This document shows, piece after piece, positions 8,917-64,000 of a stretch of DNA of 64,000 nt (positions within the stretch are counted from its first letter, which is position 1; each line of letters begins with the position of its first letter). This stretch comes from Sedimentisphaerales bacterium. GTDB lineage: Bacteria > Planctomycetota > Phycisphaerae > Sedimentisphaerales > Anaerobacaceae. The translations under genes and the position numbers were made by a program. The notes under the pieces are model-generated. The model ran no database searches. It saw only the letters and a list, made by a program, of their open reading frames with translations, and was not told the DNA's origin. The DNA lies in contig OY970194.1 in assembly GCA_963708075.1 (NCBI GenBank), forward strand, positions 2,112,001-2,176,000. The letters are read 5' to 3'.

Positions 8917-8923
8917 CGTATCC

Positions 8924-10372
<1,449 letters not shown>

Positions 10373-28007: not shown

Positions 28008-29692
28008 CCTGATCCCTCCCTATGGCGTTCTGCCGGGGGTGGGGGCGGCGGTTTGCCAGTTGGTGGAGTCGCTGCCGCTGTGAGTTTCGTCCGCGTGCTG
28101 CCTTTGCAGGCAGTCGCCGGTGGCGTCTGTGCCGGATGGCCAAGGGGCGATGGGACTGTAGATCACTTCATCCAGGATTACCCAGCCGATGTCAACAGGA
28201 TCGGTACCCACCTGCGGCTTGTCCAATGCCACTCGCTCGCCCTGGTTTGATAGATTGCCCTGCCAGGGGCCGAAGAGATTCACATTCGCTGTGAGTTGTC
28301 CGCCGTAGGCGGCGGCGAACTCTGTCACGCGAGCGGGCTCCGTCTGCGGGTCGAAGCCGACCACCACGATCCGGCCGCCGGCGGCAATCGAGGCACTCGC
28401 GGGGAAGTTGTAGTCCACCGCGCCATCCAGACGCCAAGGAATGGTCTGCGTGGTCAAGGCGACTGCTTGTGATGTTGGATTGTATAGCTCGATGTATTCT
28501 TCATTCGGATCAATGGGACTGTACATGATCTCATCAATGACCACCGACAGCAGCGGCGTTGTGTTGGCTTTGGCTTGTGAGGGCGTCATTCGGAACCAGT
28601 AGGCTCCGCCGTCGGGATAGCGGCCGAGCGAGATACCTGCTTCCTGAGCTTTGAACGAGACTGCATCCACGATCCGGTCCTGGGCTGTGCCGGGCAGATA
28701 CGACAGCAACAGGTCCTCGCCGTTACTGCCCAGGCCAAAGCCCTGGAGATTGTCGAAGCGGACGTATCCCAGAGAAGGTACCGACACCGCCGGAAGCTTG
28801 TACTTCTTCGGTTCGGCCACATCATCACTGAGATACCAGTTCGCAAGACTTACACTGGCTGCCGTGGGGTTGTACAACTCCACCCAATCATCCTCTGTCG
28901 GTGTGGCGCCATTGGCGAGGAACTCATTGAGCACCACCGTCTGCACAACAGCCGGATCATCCTGGCCCGGCGAGCCGCCCATGTTCGTGCTCGCGCGCCA
29001 GTTGCCGGGATAGTTCAACGAGCCCTGTGGCTGGCCCAGCAGTGCTGTATCCAAGGGCACCAGGGAGTGCCCGCCTCCATCGGCCGCCAGAGGCCAGCCT
29101 CGGCCGTCGCCATACTCGAACTCGGCGACCGTGCCATTCCAGAAGTCCACGAGAGCGACCTTCTCGCCATTATTCGCCAGCTTGCCCTGATACTGGCCGG
29201 CGATGATCGAAGACAATGCCGAGCCATAGCGGGAGGTGAACGCCGCTTTGTTCCGGACCACCAGCACGAACTTGCCCGGGCCAAGACTCGTAACGGCACC
29301 GCCCTGGAAATCGAAAGTAACGCCGTTCGTAAGCGAGACGCTGCCCAGATCCAGCGTATCATCGCCTGTGTTCTTGAGCTCGATGTACTCGTATTCTTCG
29401 CTATCAAAGGCATCGCCGGCCAGAACAGCGGGATTGTACATCACTTCCGTCACTCGCAGGTCCTCTAAGATTCCTGCGGCAATGGGCTCACCGGCCACGA
29501 ACTGCACCGGGGCCGACCAGTGGCTCCAGCGGCCGGAGGTATCTTTCATCCGGCAGCGGACCCGATACGTTCGCCCCTCGCGAACCACCGAGGCGGGAAT
29601 CTTCGCATCCGCATTGAACGTCGTCAACTCCGCGCTCTCCCAGAGAGGCTCGATCTCATACCTGCCCGCCTCGCGCTGGTACACCTGCGTCA
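28008..29692 (-). repeat. 1685-bp near-identical inverted repeat, copy A (partner 43784-45468)
   Basis: Same length, from TGACGCAGGTGTACCAG to GGAGGGATCAGG (12 nt past the stop); about 19 aa differences in ~555. Confidence 0.93.
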
Positions 29693-40592: not shown

Positions 40593-40622
40593 TTGACGGG
40601 AGGGTGTCAAATCGGGTAAAAT
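40593..40622 (+). promoter_or_regulatory. Sigma70-like promoter of CotH-LTD paralogue B
   Basis: TTGACG-N18-TAAAAT; homologous to the paralogue A promoter. Confidence 0.65.
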
Positions 40623-40737
40623 GAGCGAAAAGCGGGTGCGGATGGGTCTGTCGGCCGCGTGGGACGGGCATGCATTGAGCAGCCCGCATACGGCGGGTTT
40701 CAAGCCCGCCTCTACTTCATATGGAAGAGGATGTAGC

Positions 40738-43700
40738 GTGGTGGCATCAAAGAGGTTTCCGTCGGTCGTCGTAACCATCGTGATATTCTGGCTTTGCGGA
40801 TGTCCCCTGGGACGCGTGGGGGATTGTACGGCGAGGGCGGCAGACTTGGCTGGGCCCATGGTCGTCATCAACGAGCTGCACGTCAATCCGGACGTCAAGA
40901 CCGAACTTGTGGAGTATGTCGAGTTGCATAACCCGGGGACGGCTAGTGTGGACCTGAGCGGATGGCGGCTGGATGGCGGGGTGTTCTACACGTTTGCGGC
41001 CGGGAAGGTACTGCCGGCGGGAGGCTACGTGATTGTGGCTGAGAATCCGACCCATATCCGCACCAAGTGGGGCGCGGGGCGGTTTCCCCTGTCATCGGGG
41101 CTCTTGTTCGGGCCGTACGGGGGCAAGCTGGGCAGCGATGGGGATCGGGTCGTGCTGTACGATGCGGCCGGGCAGGTCGTTGATGAGGTCGAGTACCAGC
41201 TCGGCTTCCCCTGGCCGACGGTGGGCGACCCGGTGCCCGAGACCAGCACGGGCACCGGATACTCGATGCAGTTGACGAATCCGCTGTTTGACAACAACCT
41301 CGGGGGCAGTTGGCGGTCCGCGCCGCCCACACCTGCGGCGGTCAATAGCCTGGTCTTTGCGGAGAACATTCCCCCGCAGATCCGGCAGGTGAGGCACTCG
41401 CCCAAGCAGCCGCAGGCCAACGAGGCTGTGACTGTCACGGCAAAAGTGACCGACCCGGATGGCGTCAAGACTGTCACGCTCATGTACCAGGTGGTGACGC
41501 CCGGCGCGTATATCAGCCGGCAGGACGCCCAGTACATCTCCAACTGGACCTCGATCAATATGCACGACGACGGGTTGGCCGGCGACATTGAGATGCTGGA
41601 TGGAATCTACACGGTCCAAGTGCCCGCGTCGGCCCAGAAACACCGGAACCTGGTCCGCTACAGGATTTCCGCGGCCGACAGCACCGGCAAGAGCGTGACC
41701 GTGCCATACGCCGACGACCCCCAGCCAAACTTTGCCTACTTCGTCTATGACGGCGTCCACGGCTGGAAAGGGGCCGCCAGACCGGGTGACACGGGGCAAC
41801 TCGGCCAGGTTGTGGAATACGGCCCGGAGGTGATGAACAGCCTGCCCATCTATCACCTCATCAGCAAGAAGTCGGACGTCGAGGCATGCATGTGGAAAGA
41901 GCAAATCCCGTACAACAGCCTGCAAGCGACCGTCTTCAAGTGGTACGGCACGCTCGTCTATGACGGCGAGGTCTACGACCACATCCGCTACCGCCTCCGC
42001 GGCGGCGTCTGGCGCTACGCCATGGGGAAGAACATGCTGAAGACGTCCCTGCAGAGGGGACATTATTTTCAGGCGAGGGATGATTACGGCAGGAAGTACG
42101 ATACAAAATGGGACACGATCAATTTCTCGGCGTGCATCCAGCAGGGCGACTATCAGCACCGGGGCGAACAGGGGATGTTCGAGGCTGCGGGGTTCAAGCT
42201 GTTCAACCTGATGGGCTGCCCCGCCGCCACGACGAACTGGGTGCACTTCCGCATCATCGACGAGGCCGCCGAGACCGGAGCGACCCAGTACGACGGCGAC
42301 TTCTGGGGCCTGTACATGACGATCGAGCAGATGGACGGCCGATTCCTGGACGAGCACAGCCTGCCCGACGGCAACCTGTACAAGATGGACAGCGGCGCTC
42401 CCGATGCCGGCCCCGGCGGCGGCTCGCTCAACAACCAGGGCCCCACCCAACCCAGCGACCACTCCGATCTCCTGGCGTTCGCCGGCGGCTACCGCAGCCG
42501 GCCGCAGGAGCCCTGGTGGCGGCAGAATGTCAGTCTCTCCCCTTACTACGGCTTCCGCTGCGTCGTCGAGGGCGTGCATCACGGCGACATGGAGAGCGGC
42601 AAAAACTGGTTCTTCTATCACGACCCCGTGACGAACCGCTGGACGATCATGCCCTGGGACCTCGACCTGACCTGGGCCAACAACATGTACGGCACCGGCG
42701 CGGATGAATTCACAAGGAGCAGCATCTTCTCCAACGCCAGTCTCCAGATCGAGTACCAGAACCGCCAGCGGGAGTTCATGGACCTGCTCTACAACAAGGA
42801 CCAGGGGTATCAGGTCCTCGACGATCTCGCGAGCATCATCGATCCCCCGACCGGCGGCCCGACCTTCGTCGGCGCCGATCGCGCCATGTGGGACTATAAC
42901 CCGATCATGAGGTCGAGCTACGTGGACCCGAGCAAGTCCGGACAGGGCCGCTTCTACCAGCGGGCCGCCACGAGGGACTTCCGCGGCATGGTGCAGATCA
43001 TGAAGGATTATATCACGTCGAGCAATCGCGAGTTCAACACGTACTCCGAGGACGCGCAGGCTCCGCAGACGCCCGTGGTCACGGCTACGGGCCCGGCGGG
43101 CTTCCCGCTGAATACCCTGGCATTCCGTGTAAACCCCTTCGCCGACCCGCAGGGAGCCGGCACATTCGCGGCCATGAAGTGGCGCATCGGCGAGGTGGCG
43201 GCCGGCTCGCAGGTCACAGCGCCCCCGCAGGGTTCCGGCGTCCTGCTCCTGCCCGACGGCGCCGCGTGGAAATACTTCAAAGGTCTGAGCGAGCCGTCTG
43301 CCACGCAGGGCGCATGGCGCGGCCTCAATTTCGACGACTCGCAATGGTTGACGGGCAAAACGGCTATCGGCTTCGGCACCAACGAGAACTTCATCGCGAC
43401 TACGCTCAGCGACATGCGAGGCAAATACAGCACAATCTACCTCAGAAATACCTTTGAGGTGGCCAGCCTCACCACCTTCGGCAACCTCATCCTTGAGGTC
43501 AGGCTCGACGACGGCGTCAACGTCTGGATCAATGGCAAGCTCGCTTACCAGGAGAACGTATCCTCGGCTGAAATACCTTACAACGGCCTTGCGACCGCCA
43601 ACATCGAGGAATGGACTTTTGGCCGACACGACCTCGGCGCACCCGCCACGTGGCTGGTGCGGGGCACGAACGTGATCGCCGTGCAGTTGCTCAACGGGTC

Positions 43701-45456
43701 GCTCAGTGGCAGCTCGGATTGCTTCGTCGATATCCGGCTGAGTGGGGAGAAGACTCAAAACGGTGGCACGGAGCAGCCGCCTGTGACGCAGGTGTACCAG
43801 CGCGAGGCGGGCAGGTATGAGATTGAGCCTCTCTGGGAGAGCGCGGAGTTGACGACGTTCAACGCGGATGCGAAGATTCCTGCCTCGGTGGTTCGCGAGG
43901 GGCGAACGTATCGGGTCCGCTGCCGGATGAAAGATACCTCCGGCCGCTGGAGCCACTGGTCGGCCCCGGTGCAGTTCGTGGCCGGTGAGCCCATTGCCGC
44001 AGGGATCCTGGCGGACCTGCGAGTGACGGAACTGATGTACAATCCCGCCGTTCTGGCGAGTGATGCGTTCGACAGCGAGGAATACGAGTACATCGAACTC
44101 AAGAACACAGGCGATGATACGCTCGATCTGGGCAGCGTCTCGCTTACGAATGGCGTTACTTTCGATTTCCAGGGCAGTGCCGTTACGAGTCTTGGCCCGG
44201 GCAAGTTCGTGCTGGTAGTCCGGAACAAAGCGGCGTTCACCTCCCGTTATGGCTCGGCATTGTCTTCGATCATCGCCGGCCAGTACCAGGGCAAGCTGGC
44301 GAATAATGGCGAGAAGGTCGCTCTCGTGGACTTCTGGAATGGCACGGTCGCCGAGTTCGAGTATGGCGACGGCCGAGGCTGGCCCCTGGCGGCCGATGGA
44401 GGCGGGCACTCCCTGGTGCCGCTGGAGACAGCGTTACTGGGCCAGCCACAGGGCTCGTTGAACTATCCCGGCAACTGGCGCGCGAGCACGAATATGGGCG
44501 GCTCGCCGGGCCAGGATGATCCGGCACTCCCGCAGACAGTGGTGATCAATGAGTTTGTAGCCAACGGCGCCACACCGACAGCCGATGACTGGGTGGAGTT
44601 GTACAACCCCACGGCAGCCAGTGTAAGTCTTGCGAATTGGTATCTCAGCGATGATGTGGCCGAGCCCGGCAAGTACAAACTTCCGGCGGTGTCGGTACCT
44701 TCTCTGGGATACGTCCGATTCGACAATCTCCAGGGCTTTGGCCTGGGCAGTGATGGCGAGGACCTGCTGCTGTCGTATCTGCCGGGCACAGCCCAGGACC
44801 GGATCGCCGATGCAGTCTCGTTCAAAGCCCAGGAGGCAGGCATCTCGCTCGGCCGCTATCCGGATGGCGGAGCCTACTGGTTCCGAATGACGCCCTCACA
44901 AGCCAAAGCCAACACAACGCCGCTGCTGTCGGTGGTCATTGATGAGATCATGTACAGTCCCATTGATCCGAATGAAGAATACATCGAGCTATACAATCCA
45001 ACATCACAAGCAGTCGCCTTGACCACGCAGACCATTCCTTGGCGTCTGGATGGCGCGGTGGACTACAACTTCCCCGCGAGTGCCTCGATTGCCGCCGGCG
45101 GCCGGATCGTGGTAGTCGGCTTCGACCCGCAGACGGAGCCCGCTCGCGTGACAGAGTTCGCCGCCGCCTACGGCGGACAACTCACAGCGAATGTGAATCT
45201 CTTCGGCCCCTGGCAGGGCAATCTGTCGAATGAGGGCGAGCGAGTGGCATTGGACAAGCCGCAGGTGGGTACCGATCCTGTTGACATCGGCTGGGTGGTC
45301 CTGGATGAAGTGATCTACAGTCCCGTCGCTCCCTGGCCCGCCGGCACAGACGCCACCGGCGACTGCCTCCAAAGGCAGCACGCGGACGAAACTCACAGCG
45401 GCAGCGACCCCGCCAACTGGCAAACCGCCGCCCCCACCCCCGGCAGAACGCCATAG
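40738..45456 (+). CDS. Secreted CotH kinase + multiple LTD protein, paralogue B
   Basis: Same architecture as paralogue A; GTG 40738 follows the same ATATGGAAGAGGA leader (MVASKR vs MLAPKK). Confidence 0.9.
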   Translation: MVASKRFPSVVVTIVIFWLCGCPLGRVGDCTARAADLAGPMVVINELHVNPDVKTELVEYVELHNPGTASVDLSGWRLDGGVFYTFAAGKVLPAGGYVIVAENPTHIRTKWGAGRFPLSSGLLFGPYGGKLGSDGDRVVLYDAAGQVVDEVEYQLGFPWPTVGDPVPETSTGTGYSMQLTNPLFDNNLGGSWRSAPPTPAAVNSLVFAENIPPQIRQVRHSPKQPQANEAVTVTAKVTDPDGVKTVTLMYQVVTPGAYISRQDAQYISNWTSINMHDDGLAGDIEMLDGIYTVQVPASAQKHRNLVRYRISAADSTGKSVTVPYADDPQPNFAYFVYDGVHGWKGAARPGDTGQLGQVVEYGPEVMNSLPIYHLISKKSDVEACMWKEQIPYNSLQATVFKWYGTLVYDGEVYDHIRYRLRGGVWRYAMGKNMLKTSLQRGHYFQARDDYGRKYDTKWDTINFSACIQQGDYQHRGEQGMFEAAGFKLFNLMGCPAATTNWVHFRIIDEAAETGATQYDGDFWGLYMTIEQMDGRFLDEHSLPDGNLYKMDSGAPDAGPGGGSLNNQGPTQPSDHSDLLAFAGGYRSRPQEPWWRQNVSLSPYYGFRCVVEGVHHGDMESGKNWFFYHDPVTNRWTIMPWDLDLTWANNMYGTGADEFTRSSIFSNASLQIEYQNRQREFMDLLYNKDQGYQVLDDLASIIDPPTGGPTFVGADRAMWDYNPIMRSSYVDPSKSGQGRFYQRAATRDFRGMVQIMKDYITSSNREFNTYSEDAQAPQTPVVTATGPAGFPLNTLAFRVNPFADPQGAGTFAAMKWRIGEVAAGSQVTAPPQGSGVLLLPDGAAWKYFKGLSEPSATQGAWRGLNFDDSQWLTGKTAIGFGTNENFIATTLSDMRGKYSTIYLRNTFEVASLTTFGNLILEVRLDDGVNVWINGKLAYQENVSSAEIPYNGLATANIEEWTFGRHDLGAPATWLVRGTNVIAVQLLNGSLSGSSDCFVDIRLSGEKTQNGGTEQPPVTQVYQREAGRYEIEPLWESAELTTFNADAKIPASVVREGRTYRVRCRMKDTSGRWSHWSAPVQFVAGEPIAAGILADLRVTELMYNPAVLASDAFDSEEYEYIELKNTGDDTLDLGSVSLTNGVTFDFQGSAVTSLGPGKFVLVVRNKAAFTSRYGSALSSIIAGQYQGKLANNGEKVALVDFWNGTVAEFEYGDGRGWPLAADGGGHSLVPLETALLGQPQGSLNYPGNWRASTNMGGSPGQDDPALPQTVVINEFVANGATPTADDWVELYNPTAASVSLANWYLSDDVAEPGKYKLPAVSVPSLGYVRFDNLQGFGLGSDGEDLLLSYLPGTAQDRIADAVSFKAQEAGISLGRYPDGGAYWFRMTPSQAKANTTPLLSVVIDEIMYSPIDPNEEYIELYNPTSQAVALTTQTIPWRLDGAVDYNFPASASIAAGGRIVVVGFDPQTEPARVTEFAAAYGGQLTANVNLFGPWQGNLSNEGERVALDKPQVGTDPVDIGWVVLDEVIYSPVAPWPAGTDATGDCLQRQHADETHSGSDPANWQTAAPTPGRTP

Positions 45457-50529: not shown

Positions 50530-53500
50530 CTACGGGGCGATGACGCGAACGAAACCAGCACCCAGAGCCGGCTGAGTCGGCCGCTCCCGTTGCTGCTCCG
50601 GCAGGGACGGGACGGTCGTGTTGTTCGATGGGTCACGAGTCCTCACAGTCCACGTCCAACCACGGCCCTTGTTGGGCCCGATGTTTACCCGGTAGATCGG
50701 TTGATCGGTCCAGCCGCTGTTGTAGCGACTATCGGAGCACTCGAAGGAGTACTCCACGACGCCGCCGCTGTCATCCGTCGCCACCACGGCCGCCATTTCG
50801 ACCAAGTACTGGCCGATATCGAAACCGAAGTACTCCTTCGGCAGGCCATTCGGGTCCCACTGCGCCGGGTTCGGCAGCGGGGCATTCGCATCTGCTCCGG
50901 CGCCCGTTGTGCCGCACACCCAGTCGGACCAGACGGTTTCATTCAGCGAGGCCGACATATCCCTGGCCTTGACGCGGTAGCAGTACTGCGTGGTCGCAGC
51001 CAGGTTCACATCCGTGTAGACCGTCGTTCTGATCCAGCCGCTGTCGTGACCGTCGGGCGTATCCACCTCATTGACGTCGAAGTAGTACTCCACGCCATTC
51101 GGATCGAAGGACGGTTCGTCGAGTGTTACGATAAGCGCCCTGGGGTCATTCGGATCCGGAGCGACGCTCTCGATCTCCGGAGCCGGCACCGGCGGTGTCC
51201 CGTCCTGCTTGCCCGCGTAGCGGATATCGGACCACTCCGTCTCATTCTTTCGAGGCGACGTATCCCTGGCCTTCACACGATATCCGTACGCCATGCCGGG
51301 TTTCAGGCCGGTATCGATGTAGCTTGGCTTGCTCTGCCAACCGCTACTGTGGCAGTCACCGTGGACGCACTCGAAGGAGTACTCGACGGGCCAGCCCCAG
51401 CCGTCCACAACTTCCTCGACGCTCATGGTCGTCCCGAGGCCGCCGATGGTCAATCGCGGTACGAGATCCCACTCAGGCGGGTTCGGCATGGGCGCCGTGG
51501 TGTCCTGCACCAGCCAGCAGTCCGCGAAGATGGCCAGGTCGATGGCGTTCACCCTGGAATCGAACGTGAAGTCGGCGCCCTCGCACCAGCCATTGGCGTC
51601 CTTGCAGCCTTCGTGGAGCCATTGCTGCGCGAACTTCACGAAGTCGTTGAACTGGATGGCGCCGTCGCGCTCGAGGTCGCAGACTCTGCACGGCTCGAGC
51701 AATCGATAGTGGAAACCGATATCGACAGTGCCAAGGTCCGGCGCGTTGTCCGTCCGCGTCGTGTATTGCGACATGCCGATGCTGCCGGCCAAGGTACTGC
51801 CCGCGTCCACACACGGGCTCTGGCCCACCTGTCCGACGCCGGCAAACATCTGTTCCAGATAGTAGTCGCCCAGCGGTCCGCTGACAAACAGCGGGTCCTC
51901 GTGGATGACGCCCGTGCCGTATGCGAACTGGCAGCCGTCGCTGACCCAGACGTCGTTCGGCCCGGCCCAGATATTGCTGTACGAAACGTTGAGCTTGCCG
52001 CAGCGTCGATCCAGGCTGAAGCCGCTGGCCAGCGCCAGCTCGCTGCCCGCCCGGGCAAGGTTCCGCCACAGGATCGAGTCGATGATGGTGCATTCGCTCT
52101 CGTAGCTGCAGAAGACGGCGCCGCCGAGAACCGGTGATGTTGGGCTCGTTGGCCACGCCCGGTGACACGTTGCCGACAAGCGTGCAGTTCTGTACGGTCG
52201 GCTTGGCATACCACACGGTCGTCAGACCGCCGCCGTCGCGGTAAGCGACGTTATTGACAATCAGGCAGTTGTCGATCGTCATGGCATTTTCGCCGCGCAG
52301 GTAGATGCCGCCGCCCGAACCGAGGGAGGAGTTGCTCGCGACGTTGCAGTCGAGAATCTGGGCGTCCGAGGACAGGCAGAAGATACCGCCGCCCGCCGGT
52401 GTAACCGTGTTGTCGGTCGCATCGTTGGGGTCGTCCGCGGCATCGTTATCCCGGATGTCGCTGTGCTCGATCCGGATGGAGCCGCCGACGCCGGCGAAAC
52501 CGCCGCCCCGCAGCGCCCTATTGGATGTGACGTTGCAGTCCTCAACCGTGCTGGCCACGGCGTCAGCGATGTAGAGTCCGCCGCCGGTGTCCGCCAGGTT
52601 GTCCACGAAATTGCAGTCGAGGATCTGGACGAGCGCACTGCCTTCGGCGCAGACACCGCCGCCGTAACCGATATACGGGTCCAGGCGATGGTTCGGATCG
52701 GTGCCAGCGGTGGACACCGAGGTCATGTTGTCCTCGAACGTGCAGCCACGGAACCTCACCTGGGCATCCGCAGCGCAGTACACGCCGGCGCCAAAGCTGG
52801 GCAGCTCGAAGGGCACCAGGGGTTCCCAGGTCCTTCCGCCGGGCCCAATCGTACCGCCCTGTCCGCTCATGCCGCCGAAGACGCGGTTGCCGCGGATCTC
52901 GCAATGCTCGAAGACCACGTTGCTGTGGATATCGCAGAATGCGCCGCCGCCGTAACCCGAGTACCAGCGATAGTCGCCGATGTACGAGGTCTTGGAGATC
53001 GCCTCCTGGTAGGCATTCGGGTCCCTGATGATGAGATTCATCAGGGAAGACGTTACGGTTCCGCCCACGGTGATCCAGCCCTGGGACAGGTACGCCCAGT
53101 AGCTGGCATAGTCCCAGTCCCAGACCTCCCAGAGGTTCCCGGCCACAAGCTCCTGGGTGACGCCCGTGGAGCTGATGTTGTACGCGCCGGTGGTGCTCCA
53201 GTTGCCGCCGTAGTTGCCTGTGCCGCCGTTCGTGGCGTAGTTGCCGCCGGTGCCGCCGTTGCCGCCGCTGGCCCTGTTGTTCTCGATGCGGCAGTTGACA
53301 ATCCGGGGGGCACTGTAGGGGGCGCAGTACAGGCCGGCGCCATGCGCCCAGCCGCCCCAGCCGCCGCGGCCGCCGTTGTTGTTATCGTCGGCATTGACGC
53401 CGTTGCCGCCGTCGCCGGCCTCGACGATATTGTTCCTGATGAGGCAGTTCTTGATCGTCGGGCGTGCATCGGCCATCACGAGGATGCCGGCGCCTTCCAG

Positions 53501-56500
53501 CGGCACACCGTCCTCGCCATTGGGATGACCCTGGTCGCGATCTCCATCGTCCCCGTCGCCGCCCCGTCCGCCGCAATTCTGGATGGTGAAGCCATTGAAC
53601 ACGGTGCCGGCATCGGCGTTGGACGTGAAGACCACACCAAGGTTGGTGTACCCATTTGTCGTCAGGTAGCCATCGATGATGGTGGACTCGACAGTGCACG
53701 GGTCGTGCGGCGCCCTCGACGTGACGATGATCGATTTATCGATGACCAGCGCCTGAGCATTGTAGCCGCCGAAGTACCGGCCCGGATCTACGATGACCGT
53801 ATCGCCTTCACGAGCCGCATTCACCGCGTCCTGGATTGTCGAATACGCGCCCGGGCCCACGGCAAGCGTTCGGGCTATCTTCTTCTCGAAGGAGACGACC
53901 ACGACCTTGTCGGTACTCATACTGACGATGTTCTGCCTGGCCGTGCTGGCATCGGCGTCCGTGCCCACCCACTGGAACAGGCGGTAGCCCGGATCGGCCA
54001 TCGCATTGACATCGACGACTGTGCCGGGCGAGAGGAGATGCACTACCGTTTGGCCCGGCTCGACCGTGTAGATCCTCCTCGCATAGGCGTTGGGATCGTT
54101 CATGTCGATGACATCAGCGAAATCTGGATAGTAGGCGAACGTCGCCTTTCCATTGCCGACCACGCTCATCGTCAGCTTATAGCGGATGGCTTGACCGACA
54201 TAGAACGGATAGTGATAGCCCATGTCTGCAAAGCCGGTATCCGGCAGGCTCCGGATGTTCGTCGTGATCTGATTCACATCATACGTATCTTCCAGGTTCT
54301 GGAGCACGAACTGCTCGCCGGCGTTGATGCACGGGCTCTGTTGGGGCTGGCCGCCCCCGGCCTGGCTGAGGTAGAACTGGCCCATCGGGCCGCCGACCCA
54401 CAGCGGATCGCCGTTGATGTTGCTGTCGCCGTCGTCGCCATTCTCGATGTCCGAGAAGCTGGCGTCGCATCCGTAGAGGTCATCGCCCTGCCCGTTCAAA
54501 TCGCCCCACCGCCCGTAGAGAGGATCCATGGACAGCGAGCCGTTCCGGCCGATGATACAATCGGTGATCGTCGGGCTCGCATCGCGGCAGGCAACACCAC
54601 CCTTGGGCAGATTGTCGCCGGTGTCGCCGCCGGTCCCGCCATAGGATAGACCCCAGTTGTACGCGATCGTGCACAGGGTGATCGTGGCATCCGAATCGCG
54701 CAGGAAGATGGAGCCGCCGATGTCGCCCGACTGGTTCAGTGTGATCAGGCAGTTGATGATCGCGGCGGTCGCCCCGTTTTCGCCATAGAAACCGCCGCCG
54801 TAGCCGCCGGCGACGTTCCCGCTGATCCAGGTAGTCTTGATGATCGGCGAGCCGTTGGCGCACCAGATGCCGCCGCCGTTGCCGGAGGCGCGGCTGTTGA
54901 GAATCCTGCAGTTGTCAATCGTCGGCGAAGCCTCGTTGATGAGGATGGCGCCGCCGTTGTCCGCGCGGCCGTTGCGAATGGTCAGACCGCGGATGATATA
55001 GTTCGGGTCCTCGTTGCTGTCGAAGATGAAGCCGCGTCCGAGACCCATGACATCGATAATGCAGTCGTTTGGCCCATTCTCGCTGCGAATCGTCAGCCAC
55101 CGGACCTCATTGACGTCGAGGCCGGCGCGCAGATTCAGGTTGTAGTTGCCCGCGCCGGTGTAGATGCCATCGGACAGCACGATCAGGTTGTTGGGCCCGG
55201 CCGCATCGATCGCCGACTGGATCGTCAGGAACGGATTGCGAGGATGCGGGGTTCCAAACTCGTTGTAGAGACTGATCACGTTCTGGCCGATCCGCCCAAA
55301 CTCCACGGCGACCCGGACATCGTTGCCGTCGATCGTCACGGTGTTGTTCGGCTCGCGCGACAGGTCGTTATCGGTTCCGATCCACTGCCGCACACGGTAA
55401 TTCGGGTCGGGGATCGCCTTCAGTTGGATCTTCGTCCCGTCGTAGAACTGATCGCTGGCCGGTTCGAGCGTTCCGTGCGGCCCATCGCCCTTGTCAATCA
55501 CGATTCCCGTGTAGTTGAACAGTTGGGCCGGCCCAAACTCGACGATGACCTCGGTGTCCTTCTCGACGGTCACGTCGTTCTCCGACTTCGTGGAATTGTC
55601 ATCATCTGTGTTCGTCCACTGGCGCACCTTATATCCTTTGTCCGGCGTGGCGATCAGATGTACGACTTGACTGCCGAAGCCCGGATAGACGGTGGCCGTC
55701 ATCGGATCGACGGTGCCGTGAGTCAGACCCGTATTGGGATCAGGCTTGATTGTGACGGTCAGGCGGTACTGGACCAGGCCTTGTGCGTAATGATAGCCCA
55801 TGTCCACGATGTCGGCATCGCCTACTCCGTCGGTCCGCGTCGTGCGATCGGCCAGACCGATGGCACTGGCCGTATCGCTGCCGGCATCCACCGCCGGGCT
55901 TTGCTCGAGCTGCCCGGAGGCCGTCTGGCTCAGGTAGTGGCCCGCGATGAACAGCGGGTCCAAGCCAATGTTGTGGGTCTCCGGATCCCAGGTACGGGTC
56001 ACCGGATCCCAGCCGGGAATCTCGGACTGGCCTTCGATGTGGATCGAGGGAGCGATGCCGGAAATCAGGTTGATGCCGCTCATGATGGCGTCCACAACAC
56101 CATTGGCGTCCGCCACCTGCAGCATCGGCGCGCCTGTGCCGGCAGCCAGGTTCCGGAAGAACGCACTCGTCACAGGATCGCCGGCGATCTGCACCGGGAG
56201 GATCCGTTTCTCCGGGGTCTGGGACGCCGCCTGCACAATCTGCAGCAACGTGTAGTTCGTCTGCGGCTCGGGATCATGCGGCGGGGCATCGCCCATCAAC
56301 AGAATCAGGCGATCCACCTTGCCGGGGCGCCAACCGACGCCGTTGACATCCTCCAGGATACTGCCGTCGATGACTCGCATCAGGGCACTGTACACCGCCT
56401 CGGCGAAATTGAGGCCGCCGCCGACCTGAATCGCGTTGGCGGCCCCGGTCACGTCCCCGGGCACCTCGGTAAACGGCGTTCTGACGCGGAATACATAGTC

Positions 56501-59500
56501 CGTGGTCTCGCCGTTTGTGCCATCGTTGAAATCGCGGTAGTCCACGACGGCCACACGATAGTCCGGATGCGTCTGGGCAATCTGGGCCATGATGTCGTCG
56601 GCGGAAGCCCGGACGGCATTGATGTCGTCGAACATGCTGCCCGTGGAATCGATCAGGAACACGAGATCGAGCGGCCTGGAGACCTCGTTCGGGTCGCGAT
56701 CCGGCTGAATGTCGCTGTATGTGACACCGAGCCTGGAAGGCCTGGCCCCGTAGGGATTGCCACTGGCCAGAGCGATCTGGGAGCCATAGTAGTTGCTGGT
56801 ATTGCCCCAGAGAATGGAGTCGGTCATGACGGCGTTGGCGTCATAGGAGACGTAGAGACCGCCGCCGAGGGCAGACTCGAACGCGCCGGAGACGAAGTTG
56901 TCCACGATGGTGCAGTTGGAGATGGTCGGCTCATTGTACCAGTTGACGGACACGCCGCCGCCGTCGCGGCCCGCGTTGTTGCCGCGGATCAGACAGTTGA
57001 ACAGGATGGGGGCGACATTGACGTCCTGGTCGGAGCCTCCGAAGTACAGACCGCCACCGGAGGCCGCCGCGGTATTGCCGAGGAACTGACTGTCCCGAAT
57101 CGTCATCGGCGAAGCGATCCCGCAGAAGCCGCCGCCCCAGCTCATAAGGCCCGCCAGTCCGTTATTCGGGTCCAGGACGACGTTCGGGTCGATGTTGGAC
57201 ATCAAGGCGCGGTTCTTCGATACGACCGTCCCCTCGATAACGCCGGTGGACTCCACACTATACATGCCGCCGCCGTGATATGCGGTGTTCTGGGCGATGT
57301 TGCAGTCCGTGATCGTCGGGGAGGATCGCGACCACCACATACCGCCGCCGATGGCGGCGTTGCTGTCTTCAATGGTGCAGCGGATGAACTTCGGCGAGCA
57401 CTCGTTCTCGAAGGCGATGGACCCGCCGTAGCTGATGTACACGCTGTCCGGAATGGTGACCATGTTGATGTCGGCGGAGTTGTCACGGAAATTGCAGCTT
57501 TCGAATACCGGATCGCTGCCGCCGCCGATGTACACGGCGCCGCCGAAGTTCCTGATGTTCAACCGCCGGTCCGGAAGCGGATCCGGGCTGCCGCCTATGC
57601 CACACAGTCCGGCATAGGAGTGGTTGTCGATGAAATTGCAGTCGACGAATCGCGGGGAGCTGTAGTATTCGATGTATACGGCTCCGCCGTGGCCGCTGTA
57701 CTTCCAGAAATCGTCGAAGTAGCCAAAGACGCTGGAAGACGGACCACCGTAGTAGGATCGCAGGACGCCAGCGGCATCCCACGGGCCCCACTCCCAGCCG
57801 TCCCACCAGAGTCGAATCGTCTGCTCGATGGACTCCGACAGCATCCAGTTGCCGCCTCGTCCGCCGTTGGCGCCCTGGACACCGCCGCCGCCGTCGCCGC
57901 CGTTGCCGCCGTAGACGGCGCAGTTTCGGAACAGGCAGTTCTCAAAGGTCGGACTGCTGCGGAAACCGATGTACACAGCGCCGCCGTAAGCGTATCCGGC
58001 GTAGCCGCCGTCAAAGCCAACGGGGTGCACATCGTTCTGGCCGCCGTCGCCGTTGCCGCCGTTGCCGCCTCGTACGCTGCAGTCGACGAACTGGCAATTG
58101 CGGATCGTCGGCGAGGCGTCGTAAATCGTCATGGCTCCGCCCCACAGGGGTGAGCCGGGGTAGCCATCGTGATTGCCGCCGTCAATGTCGCTGCCGTCAT
58201 CACCATCCGCCCCGACCCAGTGGACATCCCCGATGCTGAGACCGTCGATGACAGTCTCGGGGCCGACCCCGCGAATTTCGAAGATGTAGCGATGCAGCCG
58301 GGTCGCCGCGACAGTACAAGGATCGTCCGGGTTACTGCCGGTCAACGTGATATTCTTGTCGTGGATTCTGATGTAGTTCCAAGGATACTCACTCGTCGCG
58401 ATGGCGGTATAGGTCCCCGTCGGAACGACGACCACGTCGCCGTCTTCGGCCGCGTCAATCCCGTGCTGAATCGAGATATAATCGCCGTTCGACCCGACAA
58501 AGATCGTCCTGGGCTGCTTGAACTCCACCGTGACGTGTCTGTCGGGACCGATGATGACGACACTGTCCGACTTGGTCGCTGTATCATCGGTGGTTCCGGA
58601 CCACTGGCCGACGCGCCATCCTTTCTCCGGGGACGCCTTGACCGCCACAGCCGTGCCTGCATAGTAGGTGCCGCTCAGCGGGCTGATCGTGCCGTGGCCC
58701 CCGATCACCTCGGTCGTCAGGGTGTACTTGGGCAGGTCCGTATGATTCGGGAAGTGATAGCCCAAATCCACCAGGCCCAAATCGCCGACGCCGTCGGTAC
58801 GCGTAGTCAGGCCTGCCAATGAGGAATCCGCCGCGAAAGTACTTCCGGCGTCCACGGCCGGGCTGTTGACGTCCTGGCCGGATCCCTCCTGACTCAGATA
58901 GAATTCGCCTAGCGGACCATCGACAAACAACGGATCTGCGTTGATGTTGGTGATATTCAGATCCGCGCCCGAAAGGGTTTCGATCTGCTGCCTCTCAGGG
59001 CTGACGTACCCGAAATCGCCATCCGGGTTCTCGTAGAACAGGCTGTGCGTGACGGAGGAGTTCGGGGGGCTGTCTTCGGCGATCGCATGTTTGGTGTTCT
59101 TGGTCAGGATGCAATCGCGAACCGTGACGTCCGAGTCCCAGTCGCAGTAGATGGCGCCGCCGAGCCTGTCGGCCATGTTCTCCGAGAACGTGCTGTTCGT
59201 GATGGTGGGCGTCGCAAAGAGCCCGGCCGCAATGGCGCCGCCGTTGCGCCGGGCGGAGTTGTTCATGAACAAGCAGTTCTTCACGCGATGGTCGACATAC
59301 CCGCCGTAGAAGCTGATGGCTCCGCCGGTGCCTTTGAGGCCGCCGGCTTTGTTGTAACCGAAGCTGCAATTTTCAATGTTGGCGTTGGTTCCCACGACGA
59401 CCATACCGCCGCCGACATCGACGCCCTTGCCCAGATACACAGTCCGCACGAAATCGCCACGATTCATGAGCCAGATATCGTAGATGAGACTGAGCCCGGC

Positions 59501-62500
59501 GTCGCCTAATATGCCAATATCGAGGACGTTCGTGCCCACGTCAGCCGGAGGCGCAATACCGCTCTCGCCCGTGGAACTGTTGTCGCTGATCGCGCCTCCT
59601 GTAAGTCTCACGGTTCCGGCGGTCAGGAACAATCCACCGCCGTTCTTGCCCTTGTTGCTCAGGAAATAGCAGTCCGTGAAGACCGCATTGAAGTCCTCGA
59701 AATGCACGCCGCCGCCCTGGCCATAGAAGCCGTCGGTGGCATCGTTGCCGCCGAAGATGCAGGACTTGAGGTTCAGGTCCAGGATGATCGGGGTGTTCGG
59801 ATCGCCGCTGTCATAGAAGGCATCGATTCCACCGCCGCTCTCACCCGTACGGTTGCCCGAGAAGGAGCAGCCTGTAATAGTGGCGTTGCTCTTGAGGCGC
59901 ATGGCTCCGCCGGAGCCGGTCGCGTCGTTGCTCTGGAAATCGCACTTATTGAGGTTCACCTCGGAGCAGAACGGACCGATGTACAACGCACCGCCCTCTT
60001 CCACAAAACTGTTGTCATAGTTGGGGATCGCTCTGGTGGTGGCTGCGTCGTCGGGAGCGGGCGCCTGGTTCCTGCTGAACAAGCACTCGTTGGCATCGAA
60101 GACACTCGATCCTTCCATGTGGACGGCGTCGCTCCTGTTGCGCGTCAGCGTGCAGCCCTGGAGGGATAGATCGCTGCCCTGCGTCGCGTAGATGGCGCCG
60201 CCGGGCGAGAACATGATGAGTTGATCTTCGAGGTTCATGGCCAGGCCGGTGATCAGCACGAATGTGAACGACACATAGGTGCTGTTCTCGTTAAAGGTGC
60301 AGTCGATGAACTTCAGGCTGGAGCCGTTCTGGTACACCGCACCGCCGGCGATCGTGCCGTATGTGGTCACGCTGCCGCTGGCGCCGGGACCGGCCGGGTT
60401 CGGATAAGGATCGGCCAATGCATTTCCAGGGCCATCCGCCCCGGGGGCGCCGACAATACCTGTCGTGGCCACGTTGTTGGCAAAGACGCAACGTTCGAAC
60501 ACAGCGTCACTGCCGGCTTCGCAGTACGCGGCGCCGCCATGGCCGTCGCCAATGGCGTTGCCGGCGTCGCCGCCCCAGCTCTCGCGCCCGTTGCCGTCGT
60601 TCGGATTGCTTCCGTTTCCACCGTCGCCGCCCATACCGCCCTGCGCCAGGCAGTTGCGGATGACGCAATCGACGAATCTCGGTTTGCTGGCGCTCAGACA
60701 GGCGATAGCTCCGCCGTAACTGTTCCCAGAGGCGTGACCGCCGTGGCCGCCCCAGTATCCATCGATATCTGAACCCTGGGGAATCATCGGGCCGTTCAAG
60801 CCGTTGCCGCCCTGGGCCGCGACGACCCTGCAGCTTTCAATCACGCATTTCGAGAAGGTCGGCGAGCTGCCATTCTCGCACAGGATGGCGCCGCCGTAAC
60901 CCGTGCCGGTTTCATCTGTACCACTCGGCATTCGCATGGGACGCGGGATGCTCGTATCCTCGCCGCCGTACTCATCCGGAATGATGAAATGCATCCCCCA
61001 GCCGCCGCCCGTGATGCCGACGGTGCCGATCCAGTAGCCGTTGCGAATCGTCAGACCTTCAATGAGGCAGTCGGATGTCTCTCCACGATAGAAGTGGAAT
61101 GCGCGCTTGCGGGTGAAGCGAGCGCCCTGGCAGTCGATGATCGTGTTGGCCACCGTATTCGGGTCATTCGGGTCCTTGGACATGATCCGGATATTCTTCT
61201 TCTGCAGATCGATGCCCGTCGGATCCGAGATATAGTGGACGCCTTCACTGATGATGATGTTCGTGTCGCCCGGGCTGGCGGCGGAAACCGCCTCTTCGAT
61301 CGTGCGGAACGCCTCCGGCACGTGCAGGTTCCGGGTCTTGTTCAGCTCGAACTCCACAGTGACGAACTTGAAGCTGCTGTCCATCGTCACGGAGTTCGTG
61401 TTGACGTTCCAGGCGGGATCGTTGTTGGTGCCGATCCATTGCCTGACACGGTAGTTGGGGTCGGGAATCGCCAGGAGCGGGATCACCTGGAATTCGTGGT
61501 AGTTGCCGCCCATCGGCTCGACCGAGCCGTGACCGCCGATCACCTGGATCACCAGTTGATACCGGCCCTCGCCCACATAGTGGAAGCCCATATCGACGGT
61601 GTCGGCATCGCCGACCTTATCCGTGCGGGTAGTGTGCTGATCCATCCCGCGGCTGGCGGCCGATGCGCTACCGGTATCCACAGCCGGGCTGGTCTCGGCC
61701 TGGCCGGCCGCCACCTGGCTGAGGTAGTAGGACTCCGTAAAGAGCGGATCTGCCGAGATGTTGCCCTGGAGCCAATTCAACGTGCGGCCCGCCTGGACGG
61801 AGATGCCGCTGCGGCCGCCCTGGATGTCACTGTATTTCACGGTCAGCGACGCCGGCCACTGCAGATGGATCGGATCGCTGGAACTGCCGACCGCCGCCTG
61901 CCTGCCCACCCGCGCGTTGTTACCCCAAAGAATGCTGTCCATCAGCGTGGTCTCACTGCTGTACGAGCAGAGCAGACCGCCGCCCTCGCCGCGACTGGAG
62001 TTGTTCGGATCGCTTGCCGTGTTCTCGACAATCGTGCAATTCGCGATCGTGGGCGCGGCAAACCAGTACGAGGTGACACCGCCGCCGCCGATCAGGGCCG
62101 AGTTGCTCTTGATCAGGCAGTTCTTGAGCATCGGGTTGCACGGATCGCCGCTGAAGTAGACGCCGCCGCCGGTGCCCCGCACGGTGTTCTCGCCGATGAT
62201 GCAGTTCTCGATCAGCGCCCCGGACGAGAAGGCAAATACGCCGCCGCCGGAACCCAGATCCAGATTCCTGGTCTGCGTCACCCGAGGGGGTACAAACCCA
62301 AAATTGGGATCCCACTGAGAGTTCGGATCGTTCGGATCGGGCCACAGGTAACTCGGGGCCCACGTGTTCGGGTCGAATGGAACCGGCGTGATACCGGGAA
62401 GGCTCACCGTCTCCGTCGGTCCGTTGGCCGCGTTGCCCCGGATGCTGCACTGGCGGATGGTGGGCGCACCGTTGCTCCAGTACATGCCGCCGCCGAACTG

Positions 62501-64000
62501 GGCCGTGTTGTTCTGAACCACGGTATTGAACACATCGACCGTGGCGCCTCGCCCGTACCAGTACAGGCCGCCGCCGAACGGCGCGTTGTTGTTCTCGAAG
62601 AAGCTGTTGCGCACGCACACCGTGCTGCCGTTGTACCAGTCGCCGATGACATCGTCGAGGATTCCACCGCCATAGAGACCGCCGCCGGCGCCGATCGTGC
62701 TGATCGCCCGGTTACTCACGAATGTAGTCTCGTTGATGTCGAGCCGGCAGTCGTGCCAGACATAGAGACCGCCGCCGTCGCCGACGTAGAGGGCATTGTT
62801 GGCATCGTATCCTGCGGTGTTGCCGAAATACGCGCCGCCGGTGATCTTGATGGTGCAGAAGGGGTCAAAAGCCTGACCGCCGCCGTGGGTTCCCGCCGAG
62901 TTGCCATTGATCGTGCAGGCAATGAGCTCGGTCTCGCAGCCCTGGGAATAGAACTCGCCGCCGCCGCTGTTGTCTGTGACCAGGTTGTTGCTGATCGTGC
63001 AGTTCGTCAGCTTGGCCTTGCAGTTCGGCATGTAGGCGATGGCGCCGCCGAAGTTCGTCGGAATGCTCCGAATCCCGGTTCCGGGGTCGCCCTGGCTGCC
63101 ACCCGAGCCACCCTGGCCGCCGGCGCCCAGGCTACCGCCTGAACCGCTCGGGCCGCCGTCGCCGCCCGTGCCGCCGCTGCCGCCGGCCCCGCCGTCATTA
63201 CCGCCTGCGCCGCCGCTGCCGCCGGCGCCGCCGGCATAAGAGGGCACAAGGTTCGCCCCGACGTCCTCAACGCGGGCGATACTTCCTGAGATCTCCGTAT
63301 CGGATATCTCGATCTGGCAGTCGTCGCCGAAGAAGATGGCGCCGCCCCAGGACCTGGCTCCGTTCTTGCCCATGTGGCCGCCGTCACCACCGCGGCCGCC
63401 GGGACCGCCGACGCCCGCAGCACCCTCCTGACCATCCGCGCCATCCTCCGCATCTCCGGGACCTTCACCGCCGGTGCCACCCGCACCGCCAGCGCCGGCG
63501 TCACCACCGGCCCCGCCCGCGCCGCCGGGACCGCCGTAGTTACCTGTCCCTTGCTGGATCCGGCTGTCTCTCACTATGCAGAACTTGATCACAGGACGGC
63601 AATTCGGTCCGAAATACATCGTGCCGCCCAGGGCTTCGCCGCCGTCGCCACCGTCGCCGCCGCGACCGCCGTCGCCGCCTATTCCGCCTGGTCCACCGGG
63701 ACCACCCGCGCCACCGGCGCCGCCGGCGCCGCCGGGCCCGTCATTGAAGCCCTCGCTGCCGGGTTGACCATCCTGACCCGCCTGACCGGTCCCGCCCGCC
63801 TGGCCTGCCTGACCATCCTGACCCTGACCGCCAAAACCACCGTCACCGCCGATAGCACGGTTATAGACAAACGTGCAATGCAGGATCAGCGGTGCACTAT
63901 TCGCGTCGAAATAGAAGGCGCCGCCATAGCCATGACCGCCGCGACCACCCTTGGCAGCGGGCGCACCCGGCGCCCGGGAGCACCATCGGCGCCCGGCTGA
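50530..64000 (-). CDS. Giant (>4400 aa) surface protein: collagen/Gly-rich N-terminal part, parallel beta-helix (GGA/GGG) blocks, InlB-B-like repeats, vWA, dockerin-like and FN3-like domains; 5' end outside the window; frameshifts at ~52130 and probably ~63975
   Basis: ORF 51473-63619 is open upstream to 64000; it joins ORF 50530-52209 as EPNITGLGGAVFCSY; vWA LVFLIDSTGSM; dockerin CDLERDGAIQFNDF..ADFTFDSRVNAIDL. Confidence 0.9.

What the first reader, a model, noticed from the sequence alone, without database searches (positions are those of the whole stretch)
50530..64000. Strong enrichment of D/E-P-N (and D-P-C, D-[AVC]-N) in the giant protein: candidate novel modification sequon
Seen: about 22 DPN by manual count (e.g. 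WPDPNDPNSQWDPNF, NIDPNVVLDPNN), where rough composition predicts about one, plus many DAN/DVN/DCN/EPN. At homologous repeat positions Asn and Cys interchange (KDPNDPNTV, PDDPCTV, PHDPCTV). Most occur in linkers or loops. DPN also occurs in the CotH LTD region. Known: the PglB sequon is D/E-X-N-X-S/T with X not Pro, so this differs. Inference: a lineage-specific N-/S-linked glycosylation or other PTM signal on exported proteins.
Basis: partly seen in the sequence, partly recalled or inferred. Interest (0 to 1): 0.75.

Follow-up and report, generated by a model that had tools for sequence, protein, structure and literature searches.

The report
Asp-Pro-Asn: candidate new glycosylation signal
Exported proteins of this sediment bacterium and most of its order carry the tripeptide Asp-Pro-Asn about six times more often than chance, and it is likely an untested sugar-attachment signal, possibly read by a lineage-specific membrane enzyme predicted to resemble the known asparagine-glycosylating enzymes but lacking their usual Ser/Thr pocket.

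Summary
Observation confirmed: 22 DPN in the window's part of a ~5,700-aa exported protein, against 1.1 by shuffling. The signal is genome-wide: DPN is 6.2x enriched in signal-peptide proteins, 1.7x in a strict cytoplasm-like set, 7.5x in proteins without paralogues, in frame only and on all codons. The fuller motif is [D>E]-[P>>A,V]-N-x(not P), best with Pro at +2 (DPNxP 19x, EPNxP 11x); Ser/Thr at +2 is not favoured. The genome has no STT3/PglB, but has a single-copy GT-C gene in a GT2/GT4 operon; its model ranks STT3/AglB first (Z 24.0 against ArnT 21.9) and has WGWxPG where WWDYG sits. It occurs in 25 of 26 order genomes; the closed genome lacking it also lacks its GT2 partner and the enrichment (0 against 12 DPN in aligned exported homologues). 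Against: some genomes without it are DPN-rich, one with it is weak, no TIXE motif, and nothing shows a modification. The Cys/S-linked idea is unsupported. The scan reported the same motif and a similar enzyme on two other genomes (e1-8569366, e1-9967321).

The parts
50530..64000 (-). C-terminal ~4,480 aa of one ~5,700-aa exported protein (signal peptide and subtilase-like domain lie beyond the window, to about 67,610): right-handed beta-helix repeats, InlB-B-like repeats, vWA domain, C-terminal FN3-like part
   Evidence: ORFs; Pfam PF13229 x7, PF18998 x5, weak PF25106; frame breaks contradicted by public contigs; subtilase read from D-T-G/H-G-T/G-T-S motifs and PF00082 on homologues
62303..62374 (-). 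four DPN in one inserted loop (FDPNTW...WPDPNDPNSQWDPNF)
   Evidence: aligned to gaps in 8 to 11 homologue alignments per site
62003..62011 (-). DPN site
61454..61462 (-). DPN site in an InlB-B-like repeat (IPDPNY)
   Evidence: most homologues have other residues here
61157..61174 (-). tandem DPNDPN (KDPNDPNTV)
   Evidence: the second slot takes N, D, E, C, A, T in homologues
59795..59803 (-). DPN-x-P site (GDPNTP)
57164..57190 (-). two DPN (NIDPNVVLDPNN)
55001..56695 (-). four DPN sites (56687, 55733, 55400, 55001) and one EPN (55346)
52424..54097 (-). four DPN sites (54089, 53015, 52691, 52424)
50848..51156 (-). three DPN sites in the C-terminal part (51148, 51097, 50848)
53696..62146 (-). 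three DPC (62138, 58316, 53696); not enriched genome-wide, not treated as part of the signal
52129..52129 (.). extra base in the assembly that breaks the frame
   Evidence: left out in contigs of 3 of 3 runs
63972..63972 (.). missing base in the assembly that breaks the frame
   Evidence: put in by one contig of run X1, depth 4.8
28503..28511 (-). single DPN in an LTD-CotH protein, same site as in its paralogue
44965..44973 (+). single DPN in the second LTD-CotH protein

Best explanation
D-P-N, most strongly as [D/E]-P-N-x-P, is enriched in the surface loops of this lineage's exported proteins and is likely a sequon at which a periplasmic GT-C enzyme (G000:C1:3033801-3035747, 649 aa) would transfer a lipid-linked sugar or short glycan to the Asn. 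Shown: the motif, its restriction to exported proteins, its rapid gain and loss between homologues, the avoidance of Pro at +1 and preference for Pro at +2, and the enzyme's single-copy conservation behind a GT2 gene and ahead of GT4 genes. Predicted: a GT-C fold closest to STT3/AglB with a conserved acidic pair (D66, E165). Inferred: the GT2 primes a polyprenyl phosphate, GT4 enzymes and methyl-/amidotransferases extend and decorate it, the glycan is flipped, and the GT-C reads an acidic residue at -2 as PglB does, while its WGWxPG segment replaces the WWD Ser/Thr pocket and would suit a Pro at +2. Cells would have gained DPN in loops because each gain adds a glycan. Other Phycisphaerae with DPN-rich exports would use more distant GT-C enzymes.
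For: Exported 482/78 (6.2x) against 82/47 (1.7x) in 1,936 proteins without signal peptide or exported paralogue; 186 of 838 against 40 of 1,042 length-matched proteins carry DPN, OR 7.1; 217/28.8 in 765 paralogue-free exported proteins, 223 of 896 families. Neighbouring tripeptides stay near chance given DP (DPD 1.07, DPS 0.76, DPT 0.90; DPN 4.58). Pro at +1: 10 of 504 against 136 of 2,388 other DP-x sites (p 2e-4), the position that OSTs bar (PMC8342417, passages); Pro at +2: 91 of 504 and 44 of 138 EPN; DPNxP 19x, EPNxP 10.7x, N-x-P elsewhere 0.98x. Sites turn over: none of 10 G000 DPN is shared with G356 homologues although those hold 5 of their own; many align to gaps. G259 (closed, 99% complete): no GT-C match, no GT2 partner at E<=1e-30, DPN 6/7.6 in exported-type proteins, 0 against 12 in 48 aligned exported homologues and 1 against 2 in 67 cytoplasm-like pairs. 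Four enzyme-bearing genomes pooled 41/10.8 (p 4e-5 against G259); same-family, same-GC G356+G363 17/6.3 (p 0.006). Orthologue in 25 of 26 order genomes, one copy; GT2 directly upstream in 12 of 14 orthologue loci of the order read in relatives, not in G356 and G363. Model pLDDT 91.6; Foldseek ranks 1-13 all STT3/AglB/PglB; VIA Z 24.0 (rmsd 4.8, 450 aligned) for yeast STT3; isolated periplasmic domain best matches AglB-S2 in two searches. Two other transferase candidates do not track the trait.
Against: No modification is observed. The fold ranking is narrow: ALG12 22.3, Pmt2 22.2, ArnT 21.9; domain Z 6.1 against ArnT 5.0 is in the tool's 'common arrangement' range. The family lacks WWDYG and any TIXE/SVSE, whose Glu is part of the proposed amide activation; Pfam calls it PMT_2, with a weak AglS-type hit for a distant member, and a GT2 + GT-C + LPG_synthase_TM set could equally decorate a cell-envelope polymer or an existing glycan. 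G280 and G296 are enriched (22/5.1) with no or only a 44-position match; 23 of 141 class genomes without a full match have >=120 DPN-codon patterns per Mb. G363 has the enzyme but 3/2.6 in a 200-kb sample. Four other enzyme-less samples pooled give 9/4.1 (2.2x), not separable from the enzyme-bearing pool (p 0.15; one of them, G270, has the gene on a 3.5-kb contig), so G259 may be unusually poor rather than typical. The loss is a single event. Inside/outside loops of membrane proteins differ little with a crude predictor (3.2x against 4.8x).
Confidence: 0.5

Rival explanations
1. DPN is a real recognition signal on exported proteins, but another enzyme or chemistry reads it (another GT-C, or a periplasmic kinase, acyl- or peptide-transferase acting on Asp or Asn); the candidate GT-C merely shares the order's ancestry and decorates lipid or glycan, like AglS or ArnT.
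For: DPN-rich G280 and G296 lack the family but hold 14-15 PMT_2-type genes each; no TIXE or WWDYG; fold scores for ArnT, Pmt and ALG12 within about 2 Z of STT3; co-loss rests on one genome.
Against: Of three transferase families tested, only this one separates G259 from G356/G363; its GT2 partner is lost with it; the +1 Pro bar and -2 acid mirror OST rules.
Confidence: 0.22
2. No modification: D-P-N is a favourable Asx-Pro turn or cap in loops and Pro-rich linkers of secreted proteins, about 2x enriched in many bacteria, amplified here by repeat families and tandem DPNDPN slippage; G259 is just poor in it.
For: DP-x is mildly enriched everywhere and DPN is 1.6-1.7x in cytoplasm-like proteins; enzyme-less samples pool at 2.2x; tandem DPNDPN is common; sites lie in loops.
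Against: 7.5x in paralogue-free proteins; DPD, DPS, DPT, which make the same turn (recalled), are not enriched given DP; 0 against 12 in the same aligned folds; EPN, DAN, DVN and EVN rise only in exported proteins (1.8, 1.4, 1.3, 1.5 against 1.0, 0.8, 0.8, 0.7); only 49 of 505 are DPNG.
Confidence: 0.2
3. DPN is a metal (Ca2+) binding loop element of extracellular proteins.
For: Asp and Asn are common Ca ligands in exported proteins (recalled).
Against: Only 2 of 505 sites are followed by a D-x-[DN]-x-D-G pattern; flanks show no acidic enrichment; sites are not conserved between homologues.
Confidence: 0.04
4. The enzyme accepts Cys as well as Asn (S-linked glycosylation at DPC).
For: DPCxP 7/1.3 in exported proteins and 0/1.0 in cytoplasm-like ones; DPC faces DPN 6 times among 109 DP-x substitutions in paralogue alignments.
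Against: DPC overall 39 against 31 (p 0.09); EPC, DAC, DVC at or below chance; 3 against 8 in close homologues; the shared slot accepts many residues.
Confidence: 0.03
5. A DNA-level motif (such as GATCC) drives the excess.
For: GAT is used at 49% of DPN Asp codons against 38% overall.
Against: 907 in-frame against 13 and 48 in the other sense frames; all synonymous codons used; the excess follows export signals.
Confidence: 0.01

Closest known systems
Campylobacter PglB general N-glycosylation (sequon D/E-X-N-X-S/T; PDB 3RCE, 5OGL, 6GXC)
   Same: Acidic residue at -2 of an Asn, no Pro at +1, exported substrates, single-subunit GT-C fold (Foldseek E 1e-6, VIA Z 17-18). R331 reads the -2 Asp (PMC4894442, passages).
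   Different: Pro is favoured at -1 and +2, Ser/Thr at +2 is not; no PF02516 match in the genome; WWDYG replaced by WGWxPG; no TIXE.
Archaeal AglB / eukaryotic STT3 (PDB 8AGB, 3WAJ, 3VU0)
   Same: Best structural matches for the whole model (Z 24.0, 23.4) and for the periplasmic domain (3VU0, Z 6.1, rmsd 5.0, 113 aligned); a GT2 upstream recalls polyprenyl-monophosphate priming by AglJ/AglD (recalled).
   Different: 8-13% identity; Ser/Thr-pocket and TIXE/SVSE motifs absent; N-x-S/T is not enriched in exported proteins (1.07x).
ArnT / PMT / AglS-type GT-C transferases (Pfam PMT_2; PDB 5F15, 6P25)
   Same: PMT_2 hit E 1.7e-7; FKxTG and YxxYxLP segments; Z 21.9-22.2; operon with GT2 and, in the own family, LPG_synthase_TM.
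   Different: Forms a discrete single-copy family (127 representatives at E<=1e-30) apart from the genome's ArnT operon at 2,587,750-2,598,389; known acceptors of these enzymes are lipid A, Ser/Thr or glycans (recalled).
Bacteroidota general O-glycosylation (D-S/T-A/I/L/V/M/T; motif recalled and named)
   Same: A three-residue, Asp-led, phylum-type signal enriched in exported proteins.
   Different: That motif is 0.85x here; the acceptor would be Asn, not Ser/Thr.

Membership tests
STT3/AglB/PglB oligosaccharyltransferases (enzyme) | Match to Pfam STT3 (PF02516) | tested here: not met
   0 matches in G000 with controls ringing in 4 archaea; none over the cut-off in 10 relatives
STT3/AglB/PglB oligosaccharyltransferases (enzyme) | GT-C membrane domain plus C-terminal periplasmic alpha/beta core | tested here: met
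   AlphaFold model pLDDT 91.6; STT3 Z 24.0, 450 aligned over residues 30-649; shared with ArnT and DPY19
STT3/AglB/PglB oligosaccharyltransferases (enzyme) | WWDYG Ser/Thr pocket | tested here: not met
   Invariant W512-G513-W514-x-P516 at the start of the periplasmic core in 79 sequences; equivalence to WWDYG inferred from position and context, no residue-level superposition available
STT3/AglB/PglB oligosaccharyltransferases (enzyme) | TIXE/SVSE in external loop 5 | tested here: not met
   The loop is variable; only Y315 is invariant, no conserved Glu
STT3/AglB/PglB oligosaccharyltransferases (enzyme) | Conserved acidic metal ligands in EL1 and EL2 | tested here: inconclusive
   D66 99% and E165 95% conserved at the expected loops, but not as two DXD motifs
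STT3/AglB/PglB oligosaccharyltransferases (enzyme) | Transfer of a lipid-linked glycan to an Asn amide | not testable with these tools
   needs biochemistry
PglB sequon D/E-X-N-X-S/T | Ser/Thr at +2 | tested here: not met
   48 of 505 DPN (9.5%) against 12.2% background; D/E-x-N-x-S/T 0.84x
PglB sequon D/E-X-N-X-S/T | Acidic residue at -2, no Pro at +1 | tested here: met
   xPN: D 5.8, E 1.9, others 0.6-1.5; +1 Pro 2% against 5.7%
PglB sequon D/E-X-N-X-S/T | No Pro at -1 | tested here: not met
   Pro is the preferred -1 residue (DxN: P 5.8, A 1.4, V 1.3)
ArnT / PMT / AglS-type GT-C | PMT_2 membrane domain | tested here: met
   PF13231 32.1 bits, cut-off 26.1; 10 of 11 A2 members
ArnT / PMT / AglS-type GT-C | Lipid A, Ser/Thr or glycan acceptor; arn-type operon | tested here: inconclusive
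   A separate arn-like operon exists elsewhere; the acceptor cannot be tested
Bacteroidota O-glycosylation motif | Excess of D-S/T-A/I/L/V/M/T in exported proteins | tested here: not met
   1,566 against 1,835 expected

The most novel reading that the evidence does not exclude
Sedimentisphaerales run a general protein N-glycosylation system with a new rule: an STT3-related but motif-rewired GT-C glycosylates Asn in D/E-P-N-x-(P), reading a -2 acid and a +2 Pro instead of Ser/Thr, on about a quarter of all exported proteins.
Probability: 0.45. Interest if true: 0.85.

Novelty: new variant of a known kind. Interest (0 to 1): 0.66.

Why it matters
Asn-X-Ser/Thr is treated as the rule for lipid-donor N-glycosylation in all three domains. 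A natural system that needs no hydroxy residue and prefers Pro on both sides of the Asn would change how bacterial glycoproteomes are predicted, test the accepted amide-activation mechanism (this enzyme has no TIXE Glu), and offer an orthogonal three-residue glycosylation tag. It is directly testable: 331 of 1,275 signal-peptide proteins here carry DPN, the order has cultured members (recalled), and closed genomes with and without the enzyme exist in one family.

Tried and rejected
STT3 (PF02516) search of the genome and 10 relatives: nothing over the cut-off. WWDxG scan: only oxidoreductases and two non-membrane proteins. Rfam on the window: 0. Only 20 hand-picked membrane proteins of 185 with >=6 predicted helices were scanned for GT-C families, so other candidates may remain. 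The LPG_synthase_TM gene was not found in 5 relatives with this query, so it is not a core part. DNA-pattern profiles (DPN against NPD over 261 phylum genomes; against DPY over 181 class genomes) are confounded by GC and off-frame hits; only coarse use was made of them. The profile of the enzyme found no solved relative by sequence at E<0.1 and none in plasmids; the ESM Atlas gave only PMT_2 clusters. No RNA holder listed. No complex prediction was sent (enzyme-substrate pairs are poorly served). More DNA from G356 and G363 and larger outgroup samples could not be had, so those counts stay small. Paper searches without a relevant hit: Sedimentisphaerales+DPN 0; Planctomycetes+N-glycosylation+oligosaccharyltransferase+sequon 0; Asp-Pro-Asn+glycosylation 1, on plant invertases; searches listed nothing on this motif (listings only). 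The library is open-access only; supplements were not read.
Full report
1. The observation. The minus strand at 50530-64000 encodes most of one very large exported protein: seven beta-helix stretches, five InlB-B-like repeats and a weak vWA hit. It is broken in the assembly at 52129 and 63972; public contigs lack the extra base in 3 of 3 runs and one contig supplies the missing base, so it is most likely a single ORF of about 5,700 aa whose signal peptide and subtilase-like domain lie beyond the window. The 4,470 in-frame residues in the window hold 22 DPN; 300 shuffles give 1.14 on average, 6 at most. DAN (7), DVN (8), DCN (5) and DPC (3) also exceed all shuffles; EPN (2) does not. In 29 close homologues DPN is 152 against 9.9 expected, and many sites face gaps, so they sit in insertion-prone loops.

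2. It is a property of the exported proteome. With a self-trained gene caller (5,356 genes, 1.98 million residues) DPN is the second most enriched tripeptide, 907 against 191. By a simple signal-peptide rule it is 6.2x in 1,275 exported proteins and 2.7x in 2,248 without a hydrophobic N-terminus; removing those with exported paralogues leaves 1.7x, like DPD, DPQ and NPD. Length-matched, 186 of 838 exported and 40 of 1,042 cytoplasm-like proteins carry it; it is 7.5x in 765 paralogue-free exported proteins and present in 223 of 896 families, so repeats do not explain it. Lipoproteins give 46/6.3, Tat-pattern proteins 6/2.6. Predicted outside loops give 4.8x and inside loops 3.2x, a weak contrast from a crude predictor. 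The excess is in frame only (907 against 13 and 48) and uses all codons. These classes come from my own heuristics, not SignalP.

3. The motif. At -2, D 5.8x and E 1.9x; at -1, P 5.8x, A 1.4x, V 1.3x, T 0.5x. Given DP, only N stands out (4.58x; D 1.07, S 0.76, T 0.90). Pro is avoided at +1 (10 of 504 against 136 of 2,388) and favoured at +2 (91 of 504; 44 of 138 for EPN): DPNxP 19x, EPNxP 10.7x, D[AV]NxP 3.7x (2.7x in cytoplasm-like proteins, so weak), other N-x-P 0.98x; tandem DPNDPN and Pro-rich linkers inflate this by perhaps 1.5-2x. Ser/Thr at +2 is 9.5% against 12.2%; N-x-S/T is 1.07x, the PglB sequon 0.84x, the Bacteroidota motif 0.85x. Cys is not a convincing alternative: DPC 39 against 31, 3 against 8 in homologues, and the slot shared with DPN takes N 9, D 7, A 5, C 5 and others; a small excess of DPCxP (7/1.3) remains.

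4. Lineage. Names on homologues point to Sedimentisphaerales, Phycisphaerae. In 400 kb of G259, a closed genome of the same order, DPN is 3/5.2 in signal-peptide proteins; in 48 aligned exported homologue pairs G259 has 0 and G000 12, in 67 cytoplasm-like pairs 1 and 2. G356, same family and GC, has 9/2.5; G417 9/1.3; G349 6/2.2 (15/2.8 with ambiguous proteins, 9 of them in one protein); G363 only 3/1.8. No DPN of G000 is shared with G356 homologues although both have them, the turnover expected of a sequon. Outside the order, samples of G280, G296, G277 and G383 are enriched 3-4x, and G001, G008, G140 and G270 pool at 2.2x on nine sites. So G000's level is high and G259's low, but the outside baseline is not pinned down.

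5. A candidate enzyme. The genome has no STT3. An earlier scan note (e1-8569366) suggested an OST-shaped enzyme without its pocket; I searched independently among 20 hand-picked membrane proteins. One, G000:C1:3033801-3035747 (649 aa, PMT_2), matched the four DPN-rich order genomes of the first sample and not G259. Its family is tight, single-copy in 25 of 26 order genomes, absent from G259, and otherwise seen only on a 3.5-kb contig of G270 among 181 class and 261 phylum genomes. It follows a GT2 and precedes GT4 and methyltransferase genes in 12 of 14 relatives' loci within the order, with an asparagine-synthase-type amidotransferase in some and an LPG_synthase_TM gene in the own family. G356 and G363 keep the GT2 elsewhere at 57% identity; G259 has no match at E<=1e-30. 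G363 has just two PMT_2 genes and G259 one. The model (pLDDT 91.6) ranks STT3, AglB and PglB first by Foldseek; VIA gives STT3 24.0, AglB 23.4, ALG12 22.3, Pmt2 22.2, ArnT 21.9. The periplasmic domain alone best matches AglB-S2 (E 2.4e-3; Z 6.1 against ArnT 5.0), which is weak. D66 and E165 are conserved in the catalytic loops; W-G-W-x-P-G stands where WWDYG does; there is no TIXE. WWDYG forms the Ser/Thr pocket and TIXE both bars Pro at +1 and supplies a Glu for amide activation (PMC8342417, passages), so this is not an STT3-family member, though it may work like one. Whether it is the enzyme meant in the earlier notes I could not check (one search found no look-alike).

6. How far the link holds. 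Genomes with the orthologue have a median of 141 DPN-codon patterns per Mb (27 genomes) against 86 (141 genomes without a full match); G259 is lowest in its order and second lowest of 181 by DPN/DPY ratio (counts hand-copied, kin not independent, GC confounded). Distant full-length relatives occur in 13 genomes, mostly families f101 and f103, which have the highest ratio (median 2.78). But 23 of the 141 are DPN-rich, all four f99 genomes lack any match, and G324 has a distant match with a ratio of 0.87. Two other transferases do not track the trait.

7. Reading. The motif behaves like a recognition signal under selection in exported loops (about 0.75 for some periplasmic modification). The most economical mechanism is transfer of a polyprenyl-linked glycan to the Asn by this GT-C, with -2 acid read as in PglB (PMC4894442, passages) and the rewired pocket suiting +2 Pro (0.5 overall; every enzymatic step is inferred). 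Rivals: another enzyme or chemistry (0.22), a structural turn preference (0.2), Ca binding, Cys acceptor, DNA motif (under 0.05 each).

8. Novelty. Ten searches of the open-access library found no report of a DPN sequon or of glycoproteins in this order (listings and abstracts only, except passages of PMC4894442, PMC8342417 and 10.64898/2026.04.15.718822; no supplements read). Among planctomycetes the listings show glycosylation work for anammox bacteria only (PMC5088730, abstract start). The scan itself noted the motif and an OST-shaped enzyme on two other genomes; those notes are not independent support. Verdict: real, new variant of a known kind if the mechanism holds; interest 0.66.

Noticed in passing
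window 50530-64000 and on to about 67,610: The giant gene itself: ~5,700 aa, signal peptide, subtilase-like domain, many beta-helix and InlB-B repeats, vWA, Gly-rich inserts; split by two assembly indels.
   Followed up: partly
whole genome: YYW is the only tripeptide more enriched than DPN (176 against 32); YWR is also high, suggesting one large repeat family in exported proteins.
   Followed up: no
G259, L030-L049: DPN and EPN look depleted rather than neutral (10/15.8 given DP; EPN 3/13), while P-E-x tripeptides are high in its exported proteins.
   Followed up: no
G000:C1:4961378-4963873 (L018) and 679704-681719 (L002): Two GT-C membrane proteins fused to a DUF5648 domain; L018 carries it as an insertion in a periplasmic loop.
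   Followed up: partly
G270:C87 (L070): GT2-GT-C-methyltransferase operon 64-77% identical to G000's on a 3.5-kb contig of a genome from another order: transfer or mis-binning.
   Followed up: partly
G356:C1:2872400-2874400 (L059), G363:C1:12200-14200 (L191): In this genus the GT-C is separated from its GT2, which lies elsewhere; in G356 a reverse-transcriptase-like ORF sits just upstream.
   Followed up: partly
window 28020-32750 and 40621-45456: Two paralogous LTD x4 + CotH proteins on opposite strands, flanking a DNA methylase and an HNH-AP2 gene.
   Followed up: no
window 6213-10372: MBOAT gene followed by three AlgX-like SGNH ORFs, an alginate-type acetylation set; the pieces at 7256-8916 may be one gene broken by an indel.
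   Followed up: no
six short PEP-CTERM-like proteins among 11 pattern hits: None carries DPN here (0 in 2,920 aa), unlike what note e1-9967321 reports for another genome.
   Followed up: partly
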